Assembly (NCBI GenBank): GCA_963827655.1
Contig: CAWHCF010000034.1
Span: 1 to 64,000 of the forward strand
Source of the DNA: an uncultured Acidobacteriota bacterium
GTDB taxonomy: Bacteria; Acidobacteriota; UBA6911
DNA: 64,000 nucleotides
Direction of reading: 5' to 3'
Part shown: piece after piece, positions 4,301 to 20,931 of the stretch
Layout of the letters: every line of letters begins with the position of its first letter
Numbering within the stretch: position 1 is the first letter of the stretch
The notes under the pieces: generated by a model
What the model saw: the letters and a program-made list of their open reading frames with translations, nothing else
Told to the model about the DNA's origin: nothing
The model's database searches: none
Position numbers and translations under genes: made by a program

Positions 4301-5322
4301 TTCTTGGGTACCTTCATCAACTCGCGCGCATTGAAGCGCGACTGAGCGGCCAGCTTCTGGAAAAGATCTTTTTCGCTGTCCGACAGTTTCGGAGGGATGA
4401 CGATCTTGAGCTTCACGTACTCGTTCCCCCGACCACCTCCCCGGCGATTCAGGCCTTGTCCGCGCAGCCTCAGCCGCTGGCCTCCCTGAGCGCCGGCAGG
4501 AATCGTCATCTCGACCGGACCATCAAGCGTCGGGACATTCGCCCTCCCTCCCAGCGCAGCCTCCCAGGGCGCGACCGGTAGTTCGATCTGCACGTCGTCG
4601 CCCTGGATCCTGAACAGTGGATGCGGCTGAAGGCGCACGTGAAGGAAAAGGTCTCCTGGCGGACCGCCGTCCGTGCCCGGGTCGCCCTGTCCTGCCAGCC
4701 GGATGACCGATCCTTCGCGCACGCCTGCAGGGATCGTAACCTCGAGCGATTTGGGACGGCTGATAACGCCGGCGCCGCGGCAGGTGGGACACATCTTGTT
4801 GTCTTTTCTTCCCGTCCCGGCGCAGTCCGGGCAGGTCTCGGTCCCCTGGAGCGCAAGGGACCGGGTCGTGCCCCGGTGGGCCGCCTCAATCGGGAGTGCG
4901 ATTTCGGCCTCGATATCCTGACCGCGCATGCGAAAGCCTGCGCCTGCGCGAGCGCTCCGCTTTCCTCCGAACAACGACTCGAAGAAATCGCTGAACCCGC
5001 CCGGCTCACGGCCAGAGCCGAATAAATCGCCGAGGTCTCCGTACTCGACCCGCATGCCTTCCCACCCGGGCGGCGGAGTGAAGTCGGCGCCGGCCTTCCA
5101 GTTTTGTCCCAGCTGGTCGTAACGCTTGCGCTTCTCGGGATCGGATAAGACTTCATTGGCCTCGTTGATCTGCTTGAATTTCTCTTCCGCAGATTTGTCT
5201 CCAGGGTTAACGTCGGGATGATATTTGCGCGCCTGCTTGCGGAAGGCCTTACGGATTTCGTCCTCGCTCGCGGTGCGAGGAACACCGAGGACCTCATAGT
5301 AATCTTGAAATTTAACCGCCAT
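4297..5322 (-). CDS. DnaJ/CbpA-class J-domain co-chaperone
   Basis: [11 protein letters not shown] motif, G/F region, two CxxCxGxG motifs, DnaJ C-terminal domain. Confidence 0.93.
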
Positions 5323-5404
5323 GACCAGTCGGCAAGTAAGTAATGAGATGTTGTGGAGGGACCGAGTTAGTGGTGCCGGGATCGATTCCTGTTGCTTTGG
5401 CCAT
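5312..5404 (-). pseudogene. dnaK: dnaK N-terminal stub (30-codon ORF, first 15 codons DnaK-like)
   Basis: AGGAGG RBS then [15 protein letters not shown], matching the Hsp70 GIDLGTTNS signature; similarity stops after codon 15. Confidence 0.85.
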
Positions 5405-5507: not shown

Positions 5508-5523
5508 CGCAACACGCATGCCA
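5508..5523 (-). promoter_or_regulatory. sigma54 (-24/-12) promoter of the chaperone operon
   Basis: Minus strand TGGCAT-GCGTG-TTGCG fits TGGCAC-N5-TTGC, about 100 bp upstream of the dnaK stub. Confidence 0.7.
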
Positions 5524-9914: not shown

Positions 9915-10197
9915 GACTTGAAAATCAAGCATGTCGACTTGGCGCCGAAGCGCCGCCCGTCTTGCTTTCGCGTTATTCAGCTCACGCTCAACCCCGAGTC
10001 GAGTGATTGAACCATTGGTCTACTCTTCGGCGCGATTCGGTTTTTCGCCGGAAATTGCCGGAGCGATCGACGGCTTCGTCCGCCGCAATTTCTCGTCCTG
10101 GCGTTTGGCTGGCTTATTTCGGCAAGAGGTCCCGCAAGTCCGCTGCTGATGCGAGGATTCTATTCTCTTGCCGCGGGCTTCAAGGAGGCTACCGGCC

Positions 10198-10452
10198 ATG
10201 AAATGCGCTCACCGAAGCCAGATCCGGGACGTTAGACCGCGCGCGAAGGGCTGTGAGGAGTGTCTCGCGATCGGGGATGACTGGGTTCATCTTCGTCTCT
10301 GCCTGACCTGTGGGCATGTCGGCTGCTGCGACTCGTCGAAGAACAAGCATGCCACCAAGCATTATTACGAGACGTCCCATCCGATTATCAGGTCGTTTGA
10401 GCCCGGGGAGAATTGGTTGTGGTGTTACCCCGATGATCTGTTCATGGAATAG
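10198..10452 (+). CDS. Stand-alone UBP-type zinc finger protein
   Basis: CEEC...WVHLRLCLTCGHVGCCDSSKNKHATKH; AAGGAGG RBS. Confidence 0.9.
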   Translation: MKCAHRSQIRDVRPRAKGCEECLAIGDDWVHLRLCLTCGHVGCCDSSKNKHATKHYYETSHPIIRSFEPGENWLWCYPDDLFME

Positions 10453-10479
10453 TCGAGAATTGCTCCACCTGCGATCTTA

Positions 10480-10618
10480 GGGCTCGCGCAGAAATAACTT
10501 CACATTCTGGCGCGCGAGTCGGTGGTCAATCATGAACCGGTTTCTTTTAGCTAAGCACGCGACGGATAGCGCCCCTGGGGGCCTGCAGCAGAATGCGAAC
10601 CTATTTCTGCGCGAACCC
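10480..10618. mobile_element. 139-bp MITE with ~30-bp terminal inverted repeats and TTA target duplication (ISAzo13-like ends)
   Basis: GGGCTCGCGCAGAAATAACTTCACATTCTG versus CAGAATGCGAACCTATTTCTGCGCGAACCC; TTA on both sides (10477-79, 10619-21). Confidence 0.8.
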
Positions 10619-10837
10619 TTAGTCCTGAATGCGATCGCTGGATCGCTTTGCGGACTGCACGGGCAATCCGCTCCCCGCGGCTTGATCGGCAGTCGTGCGG
10701 CCAGCCGCCAAAGGTACGGTAATTCGTGCGCGAGTCCTGGACGGGCCGGTTATCAATGGCCGGCCTTGCGCCGGTGTGAGTGTTCTGCAATTCAGGGCCA
10801 TAAAGGGTCAGTCATTCCTGGTTATATGCGAACGATC

Positions 10838-10853
10838 TGGCACTAAGGTTGCA
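10838..10853 (+). promoter_or_regulatory. sigma54 (-24/-12) promoter
   Basis: TGGCAC-TAAGG-TTGCA, an exact consensus match. Confidence 0.85.
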
Positions 10854-10863
10854 ATACGCCGTG

Positions 10864-11110
10864 TGGGGTTTCGAACACTGCGTGAATCGGCGGCATTACC
10901 GATTGAAAGACAAAGTGTTCGAGCCAAGCGAAATGGGGTAACGTTGCGAACGGTGCTAGAACCGCTCCGCGCTCGTGGAAAATGAGCGACTTTTGGGGCG
11001 ACGGTTGGGCCCGGCCCTTTGGGCGAAGAGCCTTTAACGGTTGAGACACGTCCCGCGGTTTTATGAGACCGACTAAGGGTTCCCGCTATAGGGAAAATTG
11101 CCCCGGTTTT
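10864..11110 (+). ncRNA. Candidate structured non-coding RNA (or very long structured leader) downstream of the sigma54 promoter
   Basis: Nested stems starting at the predicted +1 and ending in a closing helix plus TTTT; no credible ORF. Confidence 0.55.
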
Positions 11111-11225
11111 GAAAAAGAAAGGCAAGCCCTGCTACCGATTTGATTATGTGGAAGCCGGTTCACCAGAACTGGTTCAGCTGGCTATGTCATATCGATTGGG
11201 TGCCTCAGGGCAGAAAGGAAAGCTA

Positions 11226-11795
11226 ATGATTTCCCAGTCACGTGGCATCAGGATTTTTCTTCGATCGGCATCGACCACCTTTATGATCGCTGTTCTCGCC
11301 TTGTCCGTGTTCGCCCAGAAGAAACAGCAGGATCTGAGTCGAATTCAGTCCAGGCTGGCGGAAGAGGTGAGACACGAACTCGTCATGCTTCCGTACTACA
11401 GTGTTTTCGACAACCTGGAGTACCGTGTCCAGGATACCGACACGGTAGAGCTCTCGGGACAGGTGACGCGCCCGACACTGAAAAGCGACGCCGAAAATGT
11501 GGTTAAAAGGATCGAGGGTGTTGGCAAGGTGATCAATAACATCGAGGTCCTGCCGGTGTCTCCGCATGACGATGACATCCGGCGGGCAGCTTACCGAGCG
11601 ATATTCTCGAAACCGGGACTCGACCGTTACAGCCTCCAGGCCGTCCCGCCCATCCACATCATTGTCAAGAACGGTCACATTACCCTCGTGGGTATCGTGG
11701 CTACAGAGGCGGACAGGAATCTGGCGGAGATTTCCGCGAAGGGTGTATCAGGCGCGTTTAGCGTAACCAACAAACTAAGGGTCGAGAAATCGTAG
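11226..11795 (+). CDS. Secreted double BON-domain protein
   Basis: Signal-like hydrophobic segment; EVRHELVMLPYYSVFDNL; two BON repeats (V.LSGQV, ITLVGIV). Confidence 0.9.
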   Translation: MISQSRGIRIFLRSASTTFMIAVLALSVFAQKKQQDLSRIQSRLAEEVRHELVMLPYYSVFDNLEYRVQDTDTVELSGQVTRPTLKSDAENVVKRIEGVGKVINNIEVLPVSPHDDDIRRAAYRAIFSKPGLDRYSLQAVPPIHIIVKNGHITLVGIVATEADRNLAEISAKGVSGAFSVTNKLRVEKS

Positions 11796-11895
11796 CCTGG
11801 AAGCGTCGGTCCGCTGTCCGTTGGGCTCCTTCGATATTGATGAATATTCCTCACGGATCGTCACGACGTTCACACCGGCGTGCAGAGGTTCATGA

Positions 11896-12729
11896 ATGAG
11901 AACATTGTTTCTGCCATCGGGAAGGCCGATCCCTGCTCTTGGTCAAGGGACGTGGCTAATGGGAGAGGATCGAGCCAAGCGGCAAGCCGAGATCACGGCG
12001 CTTCGTCTCGGACTGGATCTTGGGATGTCGCTGATCGACACGGCGGAGATGTATGGCGAAGGTGGTGCGGAAGAAGTGATAGCCGAAGCGATTGCGGGCC
12101 GTCGCGCCCAGGTTTTTCTCGTGAGCAAGGTCTATCCGCACAATGCCTCCCGGCAAGGCGTGGTCGAGGCCTGTGGACGTAGCCTGCGGCGGCTCAAGAC
12201 AGATTACCTCGACCTCTACCTCCTGCACTGGCGAGGGTCGGTGCCGCTGGCTGAGACGCTTGAAGGATTTCAGTCACTCAAACGAACGGGAAAGATTCGG
12301 GACTACGGCGTCAGCAATTTCGATCAAGTTGACATGAAGAAAGCGAGCGCCTTGCCCGGCGGCGGCGAGATTGCCGCCAATCAAGTGCTGTACAACCTGA
12401 GGCGTCGTGGTATCGAGTGGGACCTTCTTCCCTGGTGCCGCGAACATGGCATTCCTGTTATGGCCTACACACCGATCGAGCAAGGGGCCATCCTGGACCA
12501 CCCTCAGCTGAAATTGATCGCATCGCGACACCGGGCTACGCCGGCCCAAGTGGCTCTGGCCTGGCTGCTTCGACAAGAGGGCATCGTGGTCATCCCTAAA
12601 GCGAGTAATGCGGAGCACGTACGGGAGAACCGCGCGGCTCTGGTCCTTACCCTCGCCGACCAGGATCTAGGGGAACTCGACCAGGCCTTTCCGCCGCCTC
12701 GCAAGAAAATGGCACTGGCGATCAGATGA
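11896..12729 (+). CDS. Aldo/keto reductase
   Basis: LGQGTW, IDTAEMYG, DLYLLHW, GVSNF, IPKAS. Confidence 0.93.
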   Translation: MRTLFLPSGRPIPALGQGTWLMGEDRAKRQAEITALRLGLDLGMSLIDTAEMYGEGGAEEVIAEAIAGRRAQVFLVSKVYPHNASRQGVVEACGRSLRRLKTDYLDLYLLHWRGSVPLAETLEGFQSLKRTGKIRDYGVSNFDQVDMKKASALPGGGEIAANQVLYNLRRRGIEWDLLPWCREHGIPVMAYTPIEQGAILDHPQLKLIASRHRATPAQVALAWLLRQEGIVVIPKASNAEHVRENRAALVLTLADQDLGELDQAFPPPRKKMALAIR

Positions 12730-20645: not shown

Positions 20646-20722
20646 TGGCGCACCCGGGGCGACTCGAACGCCCGGCCTGCGGATTCGAAGTCCGACGCTC
20701 TATCCAACTGAGCTACGGGTGC
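20646..20722 (-). tRNA. tRNA-Arg (TCG)
   Basis: GCACCCGTAGCTCAGTTGGATAGAGC...CT-TCG-AA...TTCGAGT...GCCA; encoded CCA; U27-C43 mismatch. Confidence 0.93.
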
Positions 20723-20730
20723 GTTTCTCT

Positions 20731-20807
20731 TGGGGTGAGCGAGGGGATTCGAACCCCCGACCGCTGGAGCCACAATCCAGAGCTCTACCGACTGAGCTAC
20801 GCTCACC
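20731..20807 (-). tRNA. tRNA-His (GTG)
   Basis: G-1 plus GTGAGCG acceptor stem, TT-GTG-GC loop, TTCGAAT, C73-CCA. Confidence 0.96.
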
Positions 20808-20854
20808 AGAATCCTTGCGGTCGCACTTTGTGCATTCTCCGGCCGCCAGCGAAA

Positions 20855-20931
20855 TGGTACGCCCAGCTGGATTCGAACCAGCGACCCTCTGCTTAGAAGG
20901 CAGATGCTCTGTCCAACTGAGCTATGGGCGC
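20855..20931 (-). tRNA. tRNA-Arg (TCT)
   Basis: GCGCCCATAGCTCAGTTGGACAGAGC...CT-TCT-AA...TTCGAAT...ACCA. Confidence 0.96.

What the first reader, a model, noticed from the sequence alone, without database searches (positions are those of the whole stretch)
10838..11110. Perfect sigma54 promoter followed by a ~245-nt multi-domain structured RNA candidate
Seen: TGGCAC-N5-TTGCA at 10838-10853, and pairing begins almost exactly at the predicted +1. Domain 1 is TCGAACACT(10871-79)/AGTGTTCGA(10914-22) enclosing AATCGG/CCGATT. Next come CGGT/ACCG and CGCTCGT-GGAAA-ATGAGCG hairpins. Domain 3 is closed by GGGGCGA(10995)/TTGCCCC(11104) and holds GCCC/GGGC, CGGTTT/AGACCG and TTCCC/GGGAA stems, followed by TTTT. 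G-U pairs favour the + strand. There is no convincing ORF, and the next gene (BON) starts about 115 nt later. I do not recognise it as tmRNA, RNase P, SRP, 6S or a common riboswitch. Inference: an undescribed sigma54-dependent ncRNA, or an attenuating leader for the BON envelope-stress gene.
Basis: partly seen in the sequence, partly recalled or inferred. Interest (0 to 1): 0.8.

Follow-up and report, generated by a model that had tools for sequence, protein, structure and literature searches.

The report
Sigma-54 promoter with long BON-gene leader
A textbook sigma-54 promoter in a soil acidobacterium most likely drives a stress-type BON-domain gene through an unusually long, hairpin-rich untranslated leader found only in this lineage, and not a new stand-alone RNA gene.

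Summary
The motif TGGCAC-N5-TTGCA is at 10838-10853 and the listed helices exist. In this genome the sigma-54 motif is informative. TGGCAY-N5-TTGC occurs 61 times, against 16-22 for wrong spacers, and rpoN plus about 12 activator genes are present. The candidate RNA region is single-copy. It matches no Rfam family. No homologue turned up in 136 other genomes of the class or beside 185 BON orthologues. Its fold is only moderately unusual: z -2.55, 7th percentile of intergenic windows. Soil metatranscriptome contigs of near relatives begin at 10873-10878. One of them runs unbroken through the leader into the BON gene, and no terminator is present. Indels in that relative break every small ORF. 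Its 12 leader substitutions avoid predicted stems (p about 0.002), and 5 lie in hairpin loops. Sigma-54-like promoters recur upstream of BON orthologues, mostly with short leaders. Verdict: a real sigma-54 promoter with a lineage-specific, roughly 362-nt structured 5' leader of the BON mRNA. An independent ncRNA is not supported. A MITE lies just upstream, at 10475-10616.

The parts
10475..10616 (.). Short copy (about 142 bp) of a dispersed MITE. Its terminal inverted repeats lie at 10476-10509 and 10589-10622. It was inserted between the zf-UBP gene and the promoter region and is not part of the RNA candidate.
   Evidence: Inverted repeat I1. The 17-nt TIR core has 80 exact and 255 (<=2 mismatches) genome hits, forming 103 paired elements. 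A DNA contig of a relative joins 10474 to 10617, which is the empty site; read depth is about 4700-5000 over the element against about 10 in the flanks.
10719..10738 (-). Degenerate third TIR-like stretch, either a remnant or a chance match.
   Evidence: I2 and D2; 3-mismatch hit.
10838..10853 (+). Sigma-54 (RpoN) promoter: -24 TGGCAC, 5-nt spacer, -12 TTGCA. Predicted +1 at about 10864.
   Evidence: Sequence. Genome-wide N5-spacer enrichment is 61 against 16-22; intergenic hits 37 against 3-9; co-oriented with a gene within 500 nt, 12 against 0-2. rpoN and activators are present. Both core elements are unchanged in relatives' contigs, and the only change inside the motif is in the spacer (10848 G>C).
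10864..11225 (+). Predicted 5' leader of the BON mRNA, about 362 nt, non-coding.
   Evidence: RNA-library contigs start at 10873 (X14) and 10878 (X4). X14 record 18 spans 10873-11749. Indels in the relative (+4 at 10904, +1 at 11004, +1 at 11030, -1 at 11150, -1 at 11219) break all small ORFs on both strands.
10867..10925 (+). 5'-terminal bipartite hairpin ('domain 1'): 9-bp perfect outer stem 10871-10879/10914-10922 and inner stem 10885-10890/10899-10904.
   Evidence: The X14 relative has no substitutions in 10873-10978, only a 4-nt insertion in the internal loop. One X4 contig variant breaks the inner pair 10889-10900. By stability it ranks 4th of 39 sigma-54-downstream 65-mers.
10970..10988 (+). 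7-bp hairpin with a GGAAA loop, followed by ACTTTT.
   Evidence: Pairing probability 1.0. The relative has two loop changes (10979, 10980) and a G-C to G-U change (10987), which is compatible on the + strand only. The scan does not call it a terminator.
10995..11104 (+). 'Domain 3': closing helix 10995-11001/11098-11104 around the small hairpins 11014-11024, 11056-11071 and 11080-11095.
Evidence: Sequence and fold. The relative's changes at 11020, 11063 and 11089 lie in the three terminal loops. This is the most variable part: 12 substitutions in 10979-11125.
11126..11209 (+). Predicted long imperfect hairpin just upstream of the ribosome-binding site. This rests on the MFE only.
   Evidence: The relative has no substitutions here, but two 1-nt deletions (11150, 11219).
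11213..11222 (+). Purine-rich Shine-Dalgarno-like stretch of the BON gene, unpaired in the MFE.
11226..11795 (+). BON-domain (OsmY-like) secreted protein gene, 189 aa, with an N-terminal signal-peptide-like segment.
   Evidence: PF04972, E 1e-21, two BON stretches. Orthologues at 47-74% identity start at the equivalent hydrophobic N-terminus. The in-frame TTG at 11109 is excluded as the start by the net -2 indels in the relative.

Best explanation
The site at 10838-10853 is a working RpoN (sigma-54) promoter. When an enhancer-binding activator (not identified) opens it, transcription starts near 10864. It yields one mRNA made of a non-coding leader of about 362 nt followed by the BON-domain (OsmY-like) envelope protein gene. 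The leader is a recent, lineage-specific acquisition in a Bryobacterales-type acidobacterium. It is a string of local hairpins, not a conserved multi-domain RNA. I infer that the hairpins act generically. The stable hairpin that begins 3 nt from the 5' end would protect the mRNA from 5'-end-dependent decay, and the downstream hairpins would leave the ribosome-binding site exposed. I do not think they sense a ligand or terminate transcription. Shown: the motif, its statistical weight in this genome, the presence of rpoN and activators, RNA-library contigs covering leader plus gene, and the absence of homologues. Inferred: the exact start, RpoN dependence, and the stabilising role.
For: Promoter. 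TGGCAY-N5-TTGC occurs 61 times against 16-22 for N3/N4/N6/N7 spacers. Of these, 37 against 3-9 lie outside called genes, and 12 against 0-2 are co-oriented within 500 nt of a gene. rpoN has 1 copy. Sigma54_activat gives 18 matches, 11 of them full-length and strong. The scan finds no sigma-70-like promoter anywhere in 10400-11900.

Link to BON. In 185 unique BON-orthologue loci the strict motif is co-oriented upstream in 4, against 0 in the opposite strand and 0 for four control spacers. With one mismatch allowed the counts are 16, against 2 opposite and 2-6 for controls. In L110 and L159 the leader is short, about 12 and <=35 nt.

Transcript. All 3 RNA libraries laid hold contigs over the leader. 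X14 record 18 covers 10873-11749 in one piece, with no cover at 10354-10839. Two X4 contigs start at about 10878, and X4 record 28 crosses 11110.

Non-coding. Indels in the relative break all small ORFs.

Structure. The 12 substitutions carry a summed pairing probability of 3.65 against 7.76 expected (permutation p 0.002). The one stem change is G-C to G-U. The + strand fold gives z -2.55.
Against: One RNA-library contig (X10 record 12) starts at or before 10811, upstream of the promoter. This means read-through, DNA carry-over or another start. Contigs cannot prove ends, and the runs were chosen because they hold this stretch. No activator binding site was recognised, and the region upstream of the promoter varies in relatives. 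The exact consensus is no more frequent than base composition predicts: 5 against 3.9. My gene caller under-calls (68% coding), so the 'intergenic' counts are inflated for all spacers alike. The leader's divergence from the near relative (12/353 = 3.4%, plus 5 indels) is about that of synonymous sites in BON (3-4 changes over 127 sites), so there is no overall purifying selection. The substitution-pattern test rests on one pairwise comparison, and two of its sites are adjacent. One X4 variant breaks an inner-stem pair of domain 1. The fold is only at the 7th percentile of intergenic windows. The stabiliser role is pure inference.
Confidence: 0.6

Rival explanations
1. The leader is a specific cis-regulatory RNA. 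It could be a ligand-, temperature- or protein-responsive switch, or a transcription attenuator using the 10970-10988 hairpin plus the T-run, that gates BON expression after sigma-54 initiation.
For: The leader is unusually long (about 362 nt), whereas the other sigma-54-like promoters upstream of BON orthologues mostly lie within about 10-60 nt of the estimated gene start. Substitutions avoid stems and fall in loops. Positions 10873-10978 carry no substitution in the X14 relative. The 10970-10988 hairpin is followed by ACTTTT.
Against: There is no Rfam match. No homologue appears in 50 family genomes or 136 class genomes with a covariance model, nor next to 185 BON orthologues. The L145 leader is unrelated and unstructured, z -0.76. 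No terminator-like site is found, and RNA contigs run through both T-runs. Overall divergence is near-neutral. CsrA was not found, and Hfq gave only a sub-threshold match.
Confidence: 0.15
2. An independent sigma-54-dependent small RNA of about 245 nt (10864-11110) ends at the T-run 11106-11109. BON would be transcribed by read-through or from its own promoter.
For: The closing helix 10995-11001/11098-11104 is followed by GGTTTT. The X10 RNA contig ends at about 11121. Sigma-54-dependent sRNAs exist elsewhere: GlmY/GlmZ and Pxr appear in the listing, and Qrr is recalled.
Against: The scan finds no terminator-like site. RNA contigs X14 record 18 and X4 record 28 cross 11110, and DNA contigs also break near 11107, so the break is not specific to RNA. 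There is no homologue anywhere. No other promoter for BON was found. BON orthologues carry sigma-54-like promoters directly upstream.
Confidence: 0.1
3. The motif is a chance or decayed match with no promoter activity, and the 774-nt gap is neutral spacer enlarged by mobile-element activity. The hairpins would be by-products of G-rich sequence.
For: The exact consensus count (5) is close to chance (3.9). A MITE and a TIR remnant lie in the same gap. The leader diverges at about the synonymous rate. The fold is only at the 7th percentile, and its strand asymmetry is explained by G excess. The X10 RNA contig starts upstream of the motif.
Against: Spacer-specific and orientation-specific enrichment makes an intergenic, co-oriented hit likely to be real. 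RNA contigs from two studies start 9-14 nt after the predicted +1, with nothing upstream in X14. Sigma-54-like promoters recur at BON orthologues. Substitutions are non-random with respect to the hairpins.
Confidence: 0.15

Closest known systems
Canonical RpoN (sigma-54) promoters of activator-dependent stress and nitrogen genes (-24 GG / -12 GC class)
   Same: Both elements match the consensus fully and have the exact spacing. rpoN and about a dozen enhancer-binding proteins are in the genome. The site is intergenic and co-oriented with a gene.
   Different: No upstream activator site was identified. The leader is about 362 nt, much longer than at most other candidate sigma-54 promoters in this genome and at BON orthologues. 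RpoN dependence is untested.
Sigma-54-dependent small RNAs (GlmY/GlmZ, Pxr: seen only as titles and abstracts in the listing; Qrr, CrcZ: recalled)
   Same: An RNA with stable stem-loops begins right at a sigma-54 start site.
   Different: There is no terminator, the RNA is contiguous with a downstream coding gene in RNA contigs, there is no conserved family, and no sequence or Rfam similarity.
5'-terminal stabiliser hairpins of long bacterial 5' UTRs, such as the E. coli ompA leader (recalled, not checked in a paper here)
   Same: A stable hairpin begins about 3 nt from the predicted 5' end of a long leader of an envelope-protein mRNA.
   Different: Function is untested, there is no sequence relation, and the organism's RNA-decay machinery was not examined.
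OsmY-type BON-domain stress proteins (RpoS-controlled in enterobacteria; the RpoS link is recalled. One search lists papers that mention OsmY and sigma-54, but none was read)
   Same: The downstream gene encodes a secreted two-BON-domain protein.
   Different: Here, and in some 6-8% of Bryobacterales/Terriglobia orthologues, the upstream promoter looks sigma-54-type. No paper in the searched library holds 'BON domain' together with RpoN and promoter.

Membership tests
RpoN (sigma-54)-dependent promoter | -24 GG and -12 GC elements with the consensus TGGCAC-N5-TTGCW | tested here: met
   10838-10853 matches 11 of 11. The spacer-specific enrichment in this genome is 61 against 16-22.
RpoN (sigma-54)-dependent promoter | The organism encodes RpoN and enhancer-binding activators | tested here: met
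   Sigma54_DBD at E 1.5e-57. Sigma54_activat gives 18 matches, 11 of them strong and full-length.
RpoN (sigma-54)-dependent promoter | An upstream activator binding site about 80-200 bp upstream | tested here: inconclusive
   No convincing palindrome lies in 10617-10837. The repeats seen there are MITE termini, and the region varies in relatives.
RpoN (sigma-54)-dependent promoter | Transcript start about 12 nt downstream of the GC element, dependent on rpoN | tested here: inconclusive
   RNA contigs from two studies begin at 10873-10878, but a third begins at or before 10811. Contigs cannot prove ends. rpoN dependence cannot be tested here.
Any described RNA family (Rfam 15) | Covariance-model score at or above the gathering threshold | tested here: not met
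   The window yields only 4 tRNAs. At E<=10, region 10700-11300 yields only sR19, at E 6.2 and on the opposite strand.
Independent small RNA gene | Its own terminator or a defined 3' end separate from the downstream gene | tested here: not met
   There are 0 terminator-like sites in 10400-11900. RNA contigs cross 11110.
Conserved structured RNA or riboswitch | Homologues in other lineages with compensatory base changes | tested here: not met
   BLAST against 60 relatives gives no real match. Model R1 gives 1 weak hit (E 0.006) over a gene start among the 136 other genomes of the class, 50 of them in the family. There is no similarity beside 185 BON orthologues. The one near relative shows 1 one-sided compatible change and no double change.
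Dispersed repeat or MITE (for the RNA candidate 10830-11115) | Multiple copies in the genome | tested here: not met
   There is one match, to itself, in 8.18 Mb.
MITE (for 10475-10616) | Terminal inverted repeats, many copies of uniform size, target-site duplication, empty site in a relative | tested here: met
   The TIRs are 34 nt and 85% complementary. There are 103 paired copies, 64 of them in the 230-239-bp class and 19 in the 140-159-bp class, with flanks that read as CTWAG on both sides. A contig of a relative shows the empty site.

The most novel reading that the evidence does not exclude
The leader is a young, lineage-specific regulatory RNA. It would either be a sensor that gates a sigma-54-driven envelope-stress BON gene, or the source of a stable 5'-UTR-derived sRNA. 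It would have been caught soon after its birth in an uncultured Bryobacterales lineage, with its hairpins already under structural selection.
Probability: 0.15. Interest if true: 0.5.

Novelty: new member of a known kind. Interest (0 to 1): 0.25.

Why it matters
If correct, this adds a BON/OsmY-type envelope protein to the sigma-54 regulon of soil Acidobacteriota (Bryobacterales), a phylum with almost no experimental promoter or RNA data. It also gives an example of a long, recently acquired 5' leader whose hairpins already show signs of structural constraint. That is of modest interest for annotation and for how leaders arise. It does not open a new class of RNA. The recurrent sigma-54-like promoters at BON orthologues are the more general and more testable observation.

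Tried and rejected
Known RNA family: rejected.

Dispersed repeat for the RNA region: rejected, as it is single-copy.

Coding small ORFs: the 20-aa ORF from ATG 10982, the 26-aa ORF from ATG 11064, the 26-aa ORF 11146-11226 whose stop overlaps the BON ATG, the in-frame TTG 11109 extension, and the minus-strand 105-aa and 68-aa ORFs. All are rejected because the near relative's indels shift their frames.

Homologues by BLAST or nhmmer in 60 relatives, 29 family BON loci, 80 metagenome loci and 80 genome loci: none. The only hit (L088) is to the MITE terminus, not the leader.

A single-sequence covariance model of 10864-10994 found only one weak hit, which overlaps a gene start. A single-sequence model is weak, and filters were strict above 40 genomes, so this is 'not found', not 'absent'.

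Synteny: none of 109 BON loci carries the HbpS-like, zf-UBP or aldo-keto reductase neighbours.

A shared motif with other sigma-54-downstream or upstream regions of this genome: only scattered single 9-mers.

CsrA-type control via GGA loops: CsrA was not found in a genome that is 90% complete, and Hfq gave only a sub-threshold hit.

The L145 leader as a homologue: no similarity, z -0.76.

Contig depth was not used to compare leader and CDS levels, because the tool says depth cannot rank parts of a gene. Gaps in cover are not used as evidence, except for the tool's own 'weak hint' rule.

The literature searches were read as listings and abstracts only. No paper was opened, and supplements were not consulted. 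No paper in the searched library holds 'BON domain', RpoN and promoter together.

A Pfam scan of the 30-aa ORF 5315-5404 (-) found nothing.

Full report
WHAT IS THERE. The window reads TGGCAC (10838-10843), five bases, then TTGCA (10849-10853). With C10852 as -12, the expected start is about 10864. The site lies in a 774-nt gap. Upstream is a zf-UBP-type zinc-finger gene (10168-10452, PF02148). Downstream is a gene for a secreted protein with two BON stretches (ATG 11226 to 11795, PF04972, E 1e-21). Relatives of the BON protein named in public records are Bryobacteraceae, Solibacteraceae and other Terriglobia MAGs.

IS THE PROMOTER MORE THAN CHANCE? The exact 11-base consensus occurs 5 times in the 8.18-Mb genome, against 3.9 expected from composition. 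Perfection alone proves nothing. The spacer control does carry weight. TGGCAY-N5-TTGC occurs 61 times, against 17, 22, 17 and 16 for N3, N4, N6 and N7. Outside my crude gene calls the counts are 37 against 3-9. Co-oriented with a called gene within 500 nt they are 12 against 0-2. The gene caller covers only 68% of the genome, so 'intergenic' is generous, but equally so for all spacers. The genome has one rpoN. It has 18 Sigma54_activat matches, 11 of them strong and full-length. An intergenic, co-oriented, perfect site is therefore probably real. I put this at roughly 0.8-0.85. The simple scan found no sigma-70-like promoter in 10400-11900.

IS THE RNA STRUCTURE MORE THAN CHANCE? The fold of 10864-11112 is -96.5 kcal/mol, z -2.55 (2 of 200 shuffles as good). 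The reverse strand gives -79.4, z -2.13. Against 800 GC-adjusted intergenic windows of the same genome, the + strand is at the 7th percentile and the - strand at the 58th. The strand difference of 17.1 kcal/mol is reached by 7.5% of 400 windows and follows from G excess. The 5' half alone gives z -1.42. Thermodynamics is thus suggestive, not compelling.

KNOWN FAMILY OR REPEAT? Rfam 15 gives only four tRNAs in the window. Near the site it gives nothing better than a junk E 6.2 hit. The stretch 10830-11115 is single-copy in the genome, so it is not a MITE.

The gap does contain a MITE. The inverted repeat 10476-10509/10589-10622 belongs to a family whose 17-nt terminus has 80 exact and 255 (<=2 mismatch) hits. 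These form 103 paired elements, mostly about 235 bp, with a class of about 140-159 bp. A DNA contig of a relative joins 10474 directly to 10617, which is the empty site. Depth over the element is about 4700-5000, against about 10 beside it. This explains part of the long gap, but it lies upstream of the promoter.

HOMOLOGUES. BLAST of 10830-11115 against 60 relatives gave one 30-nt match at E 0.0096, which is not meaningful. BON orthologues (47-74% identity) exist in 28 of 50 family genomes, in 80 metagenome loci and in 80 genome loci. After removal of duplicates there are 185 unique loci. None shows nucleotide similarity to the leader. None of the 109 loci tested shares the neighbouring genes. 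A covariance model of 10864-10994 with three hairpins found only one weak hit (E 0.006 per genome) in the 136 other genomes of the class, 50 of them in the family. That hit overlaps a gene start. The leader is lineage-specific as far as these searches reach.

NEAR RELATIVES IN SOIL DATA. Twenty public runs hold 11-31% of the sampled words of 10400-11800. I laid three RNA libraries (X4, X10, X14) and one DNA run (X1).

For my reading:
- X14 record 18 is one 881-nt contig covering 10873-11749, that is, the leader plus most of BON. X14 has no cover at 10354-10839.
- Two X4 contigs start at about 10878.
- X4 record 28 (11085-11307) crosses the T-run at 11106-11109.
- The DNA run goes on across the promoter (X1 record 2, 10762-10905).

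Against my reading:
- X10 record 12 covers 10811-11121, so it starts upstream of the promoter.
- All of this is contig data from libraries chosen because they hold the stretch.
- DNA carry-over cannot be excluded.

WHAT THE DIFFERENCES SAY. The X14 relative differs from the window in the leader (10873-11225, 353 nt) by 12 substitutions and 5 indels. In BON (11226-11749) it differs by 14 listed substitutions. Three codon changes are synonymous and ten are not, most of them in the signal-peptide region, with 127 synonymous sites. Synonymous divergence of about 2.4-3.1% therefore matches the leader's 3.4%. Overall, the leader is not under detectable purifying selection.

The indels (+4 at 10904, +1 at 11004, +1 at 11030, -1 at 11150, -1 at 11219) break every small ORF on either strand and the TTG 11109 extension of BON. 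The leader is non-coding and BON starts at 11226.

The substitutions are not spread evenly. There are none in 10873-10978, 12 in 10979-11125, and none in 11126-11225. Their summed pairing probability is 3.65, against 7.76 expected (permutation p 0.002).

One X4 variant carries three changes in domain 1, and one of them breaks the pair 10889-10900. No double, compensatory change was seen. This is a single pairwise comparison with two adjacent sites. I read it as modest evidence that the local hairpins are maintained. It is not evidence for the long-range 'multi-domain' architecture.

THE LINK TO BON. Among the 185 unique BON loci, the strict sigma-54 motif lies co-oriented within -700 to +60 of the estimated start in 4 (L104, L110, L145, L159). 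The count is 0 on the other strand and 0 for four control spacers on either strand. With one mismatch allowed (GG and GC fixed), 16 co-oriented hits compare with 2 on the other strand and 2-6 for control spacers. In L110 and L159 the leader would be about 12 nt and <=35 nt. In L145, a perfect consensus, it is about 260 nt, but unrelated in sequence and not notably folded, z -0.76. Sigma-54 control of this BON family therefore recurs, and the long leader here is a local peculiarity. That argues that the promoter serves BON, not a separate RNA gene.

MECHANISM. Most likely (0.6): an unidentified activator opens the RpoN promoter, transcription starts near 10864, and one mRNA carries the leader of about 362 nt plus BON. 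The 5'-terminal hairpin (10867-10925) starts 3 nt from the 5' end, is the best-conserved part, and ranks 4th most stable of 39 sigma-54-downstream 65-mers. By analogy with 5' stabiliser hairpins (recalled knowledge), it would protect the mRNA. The ribosome-binding stretch 11213-11222 is unpaired in the MFE. These functional steps are inferred.

Rivals are a specific regulatory leader (0.15), an independent sRNA (0.10), and a non-functional motif in neutral spacer (0.15). No terminator-like site exists. CsrA was not found, and Hfq gave only a sub-threshold match.

NOVELTY. Sigma-54 promoters, long structured leaders and sigma-54-dependent sRNAs are all known kinds. GlmY/GlmZ and Pxr were seen only as listing entries. 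No paper in the searched library combines 'BON domain', RpoN and promoter. The OsmY and sigma-54 listing was not read further. This is a new member of a known kind, of modest interest (0.25).

Noticed in passing
window 10475-10616 (TIRs 10476-10509 / 10589-10622); genome-wide in G000: An abundant MITE family. The 17-nt terminus has 80 exact and 255 (<=2 mismatch) hits, forming 103 paired elements, mostly about 235 bp with a shorter class of about 140-159 bp. Flanks read CTWAG on both sides, suggesting a TWA or CTWAG target duplication. A contig of a relative shows the empty site, and depth in a soil DNA run is several hundred times that of the flanks.
   Followed up: partly
L088:1113-1151 (metagenome contig): The only nucleotide match of the gap to any BON-orthologue locus is to the MITE terminus (39 nt, 82%, E 7e-4). 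The MITE family therefore also occurs in a more distant relative.
   Followed up: no
window 5508-5523 (- strand): A second sigma-54-type motif (TGGCAT-N5-TTGCG) lies about 100-190 nt upstream of a DnaJ-like gene (5322-4297, -) followed by ClpB (4137-1396, -). A 9-bp perfect inverted repeat at 5678-5670 / 5659-5651 lies about 140 nt upstream of it and could be an activator site. A 30-aa ORF (5404-5315, -) between them looks, from memory, like the N-terminus of DnaK, but Pfam finds nothing.
   Followed up: partly
BON-orthologue loci, e.g. L145:1242-1257, L159:386-401, L110:2006-2021: Sigma-54-like promoters recur directly upstream of BON orthologues in Bryobacterales/Terriglobia MAGs and soil contigs. 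The strict motif is found in 4 of 185 loci against 0 in controls. With one mismatch the count is 16, against 2-6 in controls.
   Followed up: partly
window 20649-20931 and 41467-41540 (- strand): Three clustered tRNA genes and one further tRNA gene are the only Rfam matches in the window.
   Followed up: no
G000:C29:2119-2537: A Sigma54_activat domain is split over two adjacent frames (125-aa and 89-aa open frames). This could be a frameshifted activator gene or an assembly error.
   Followed up: no
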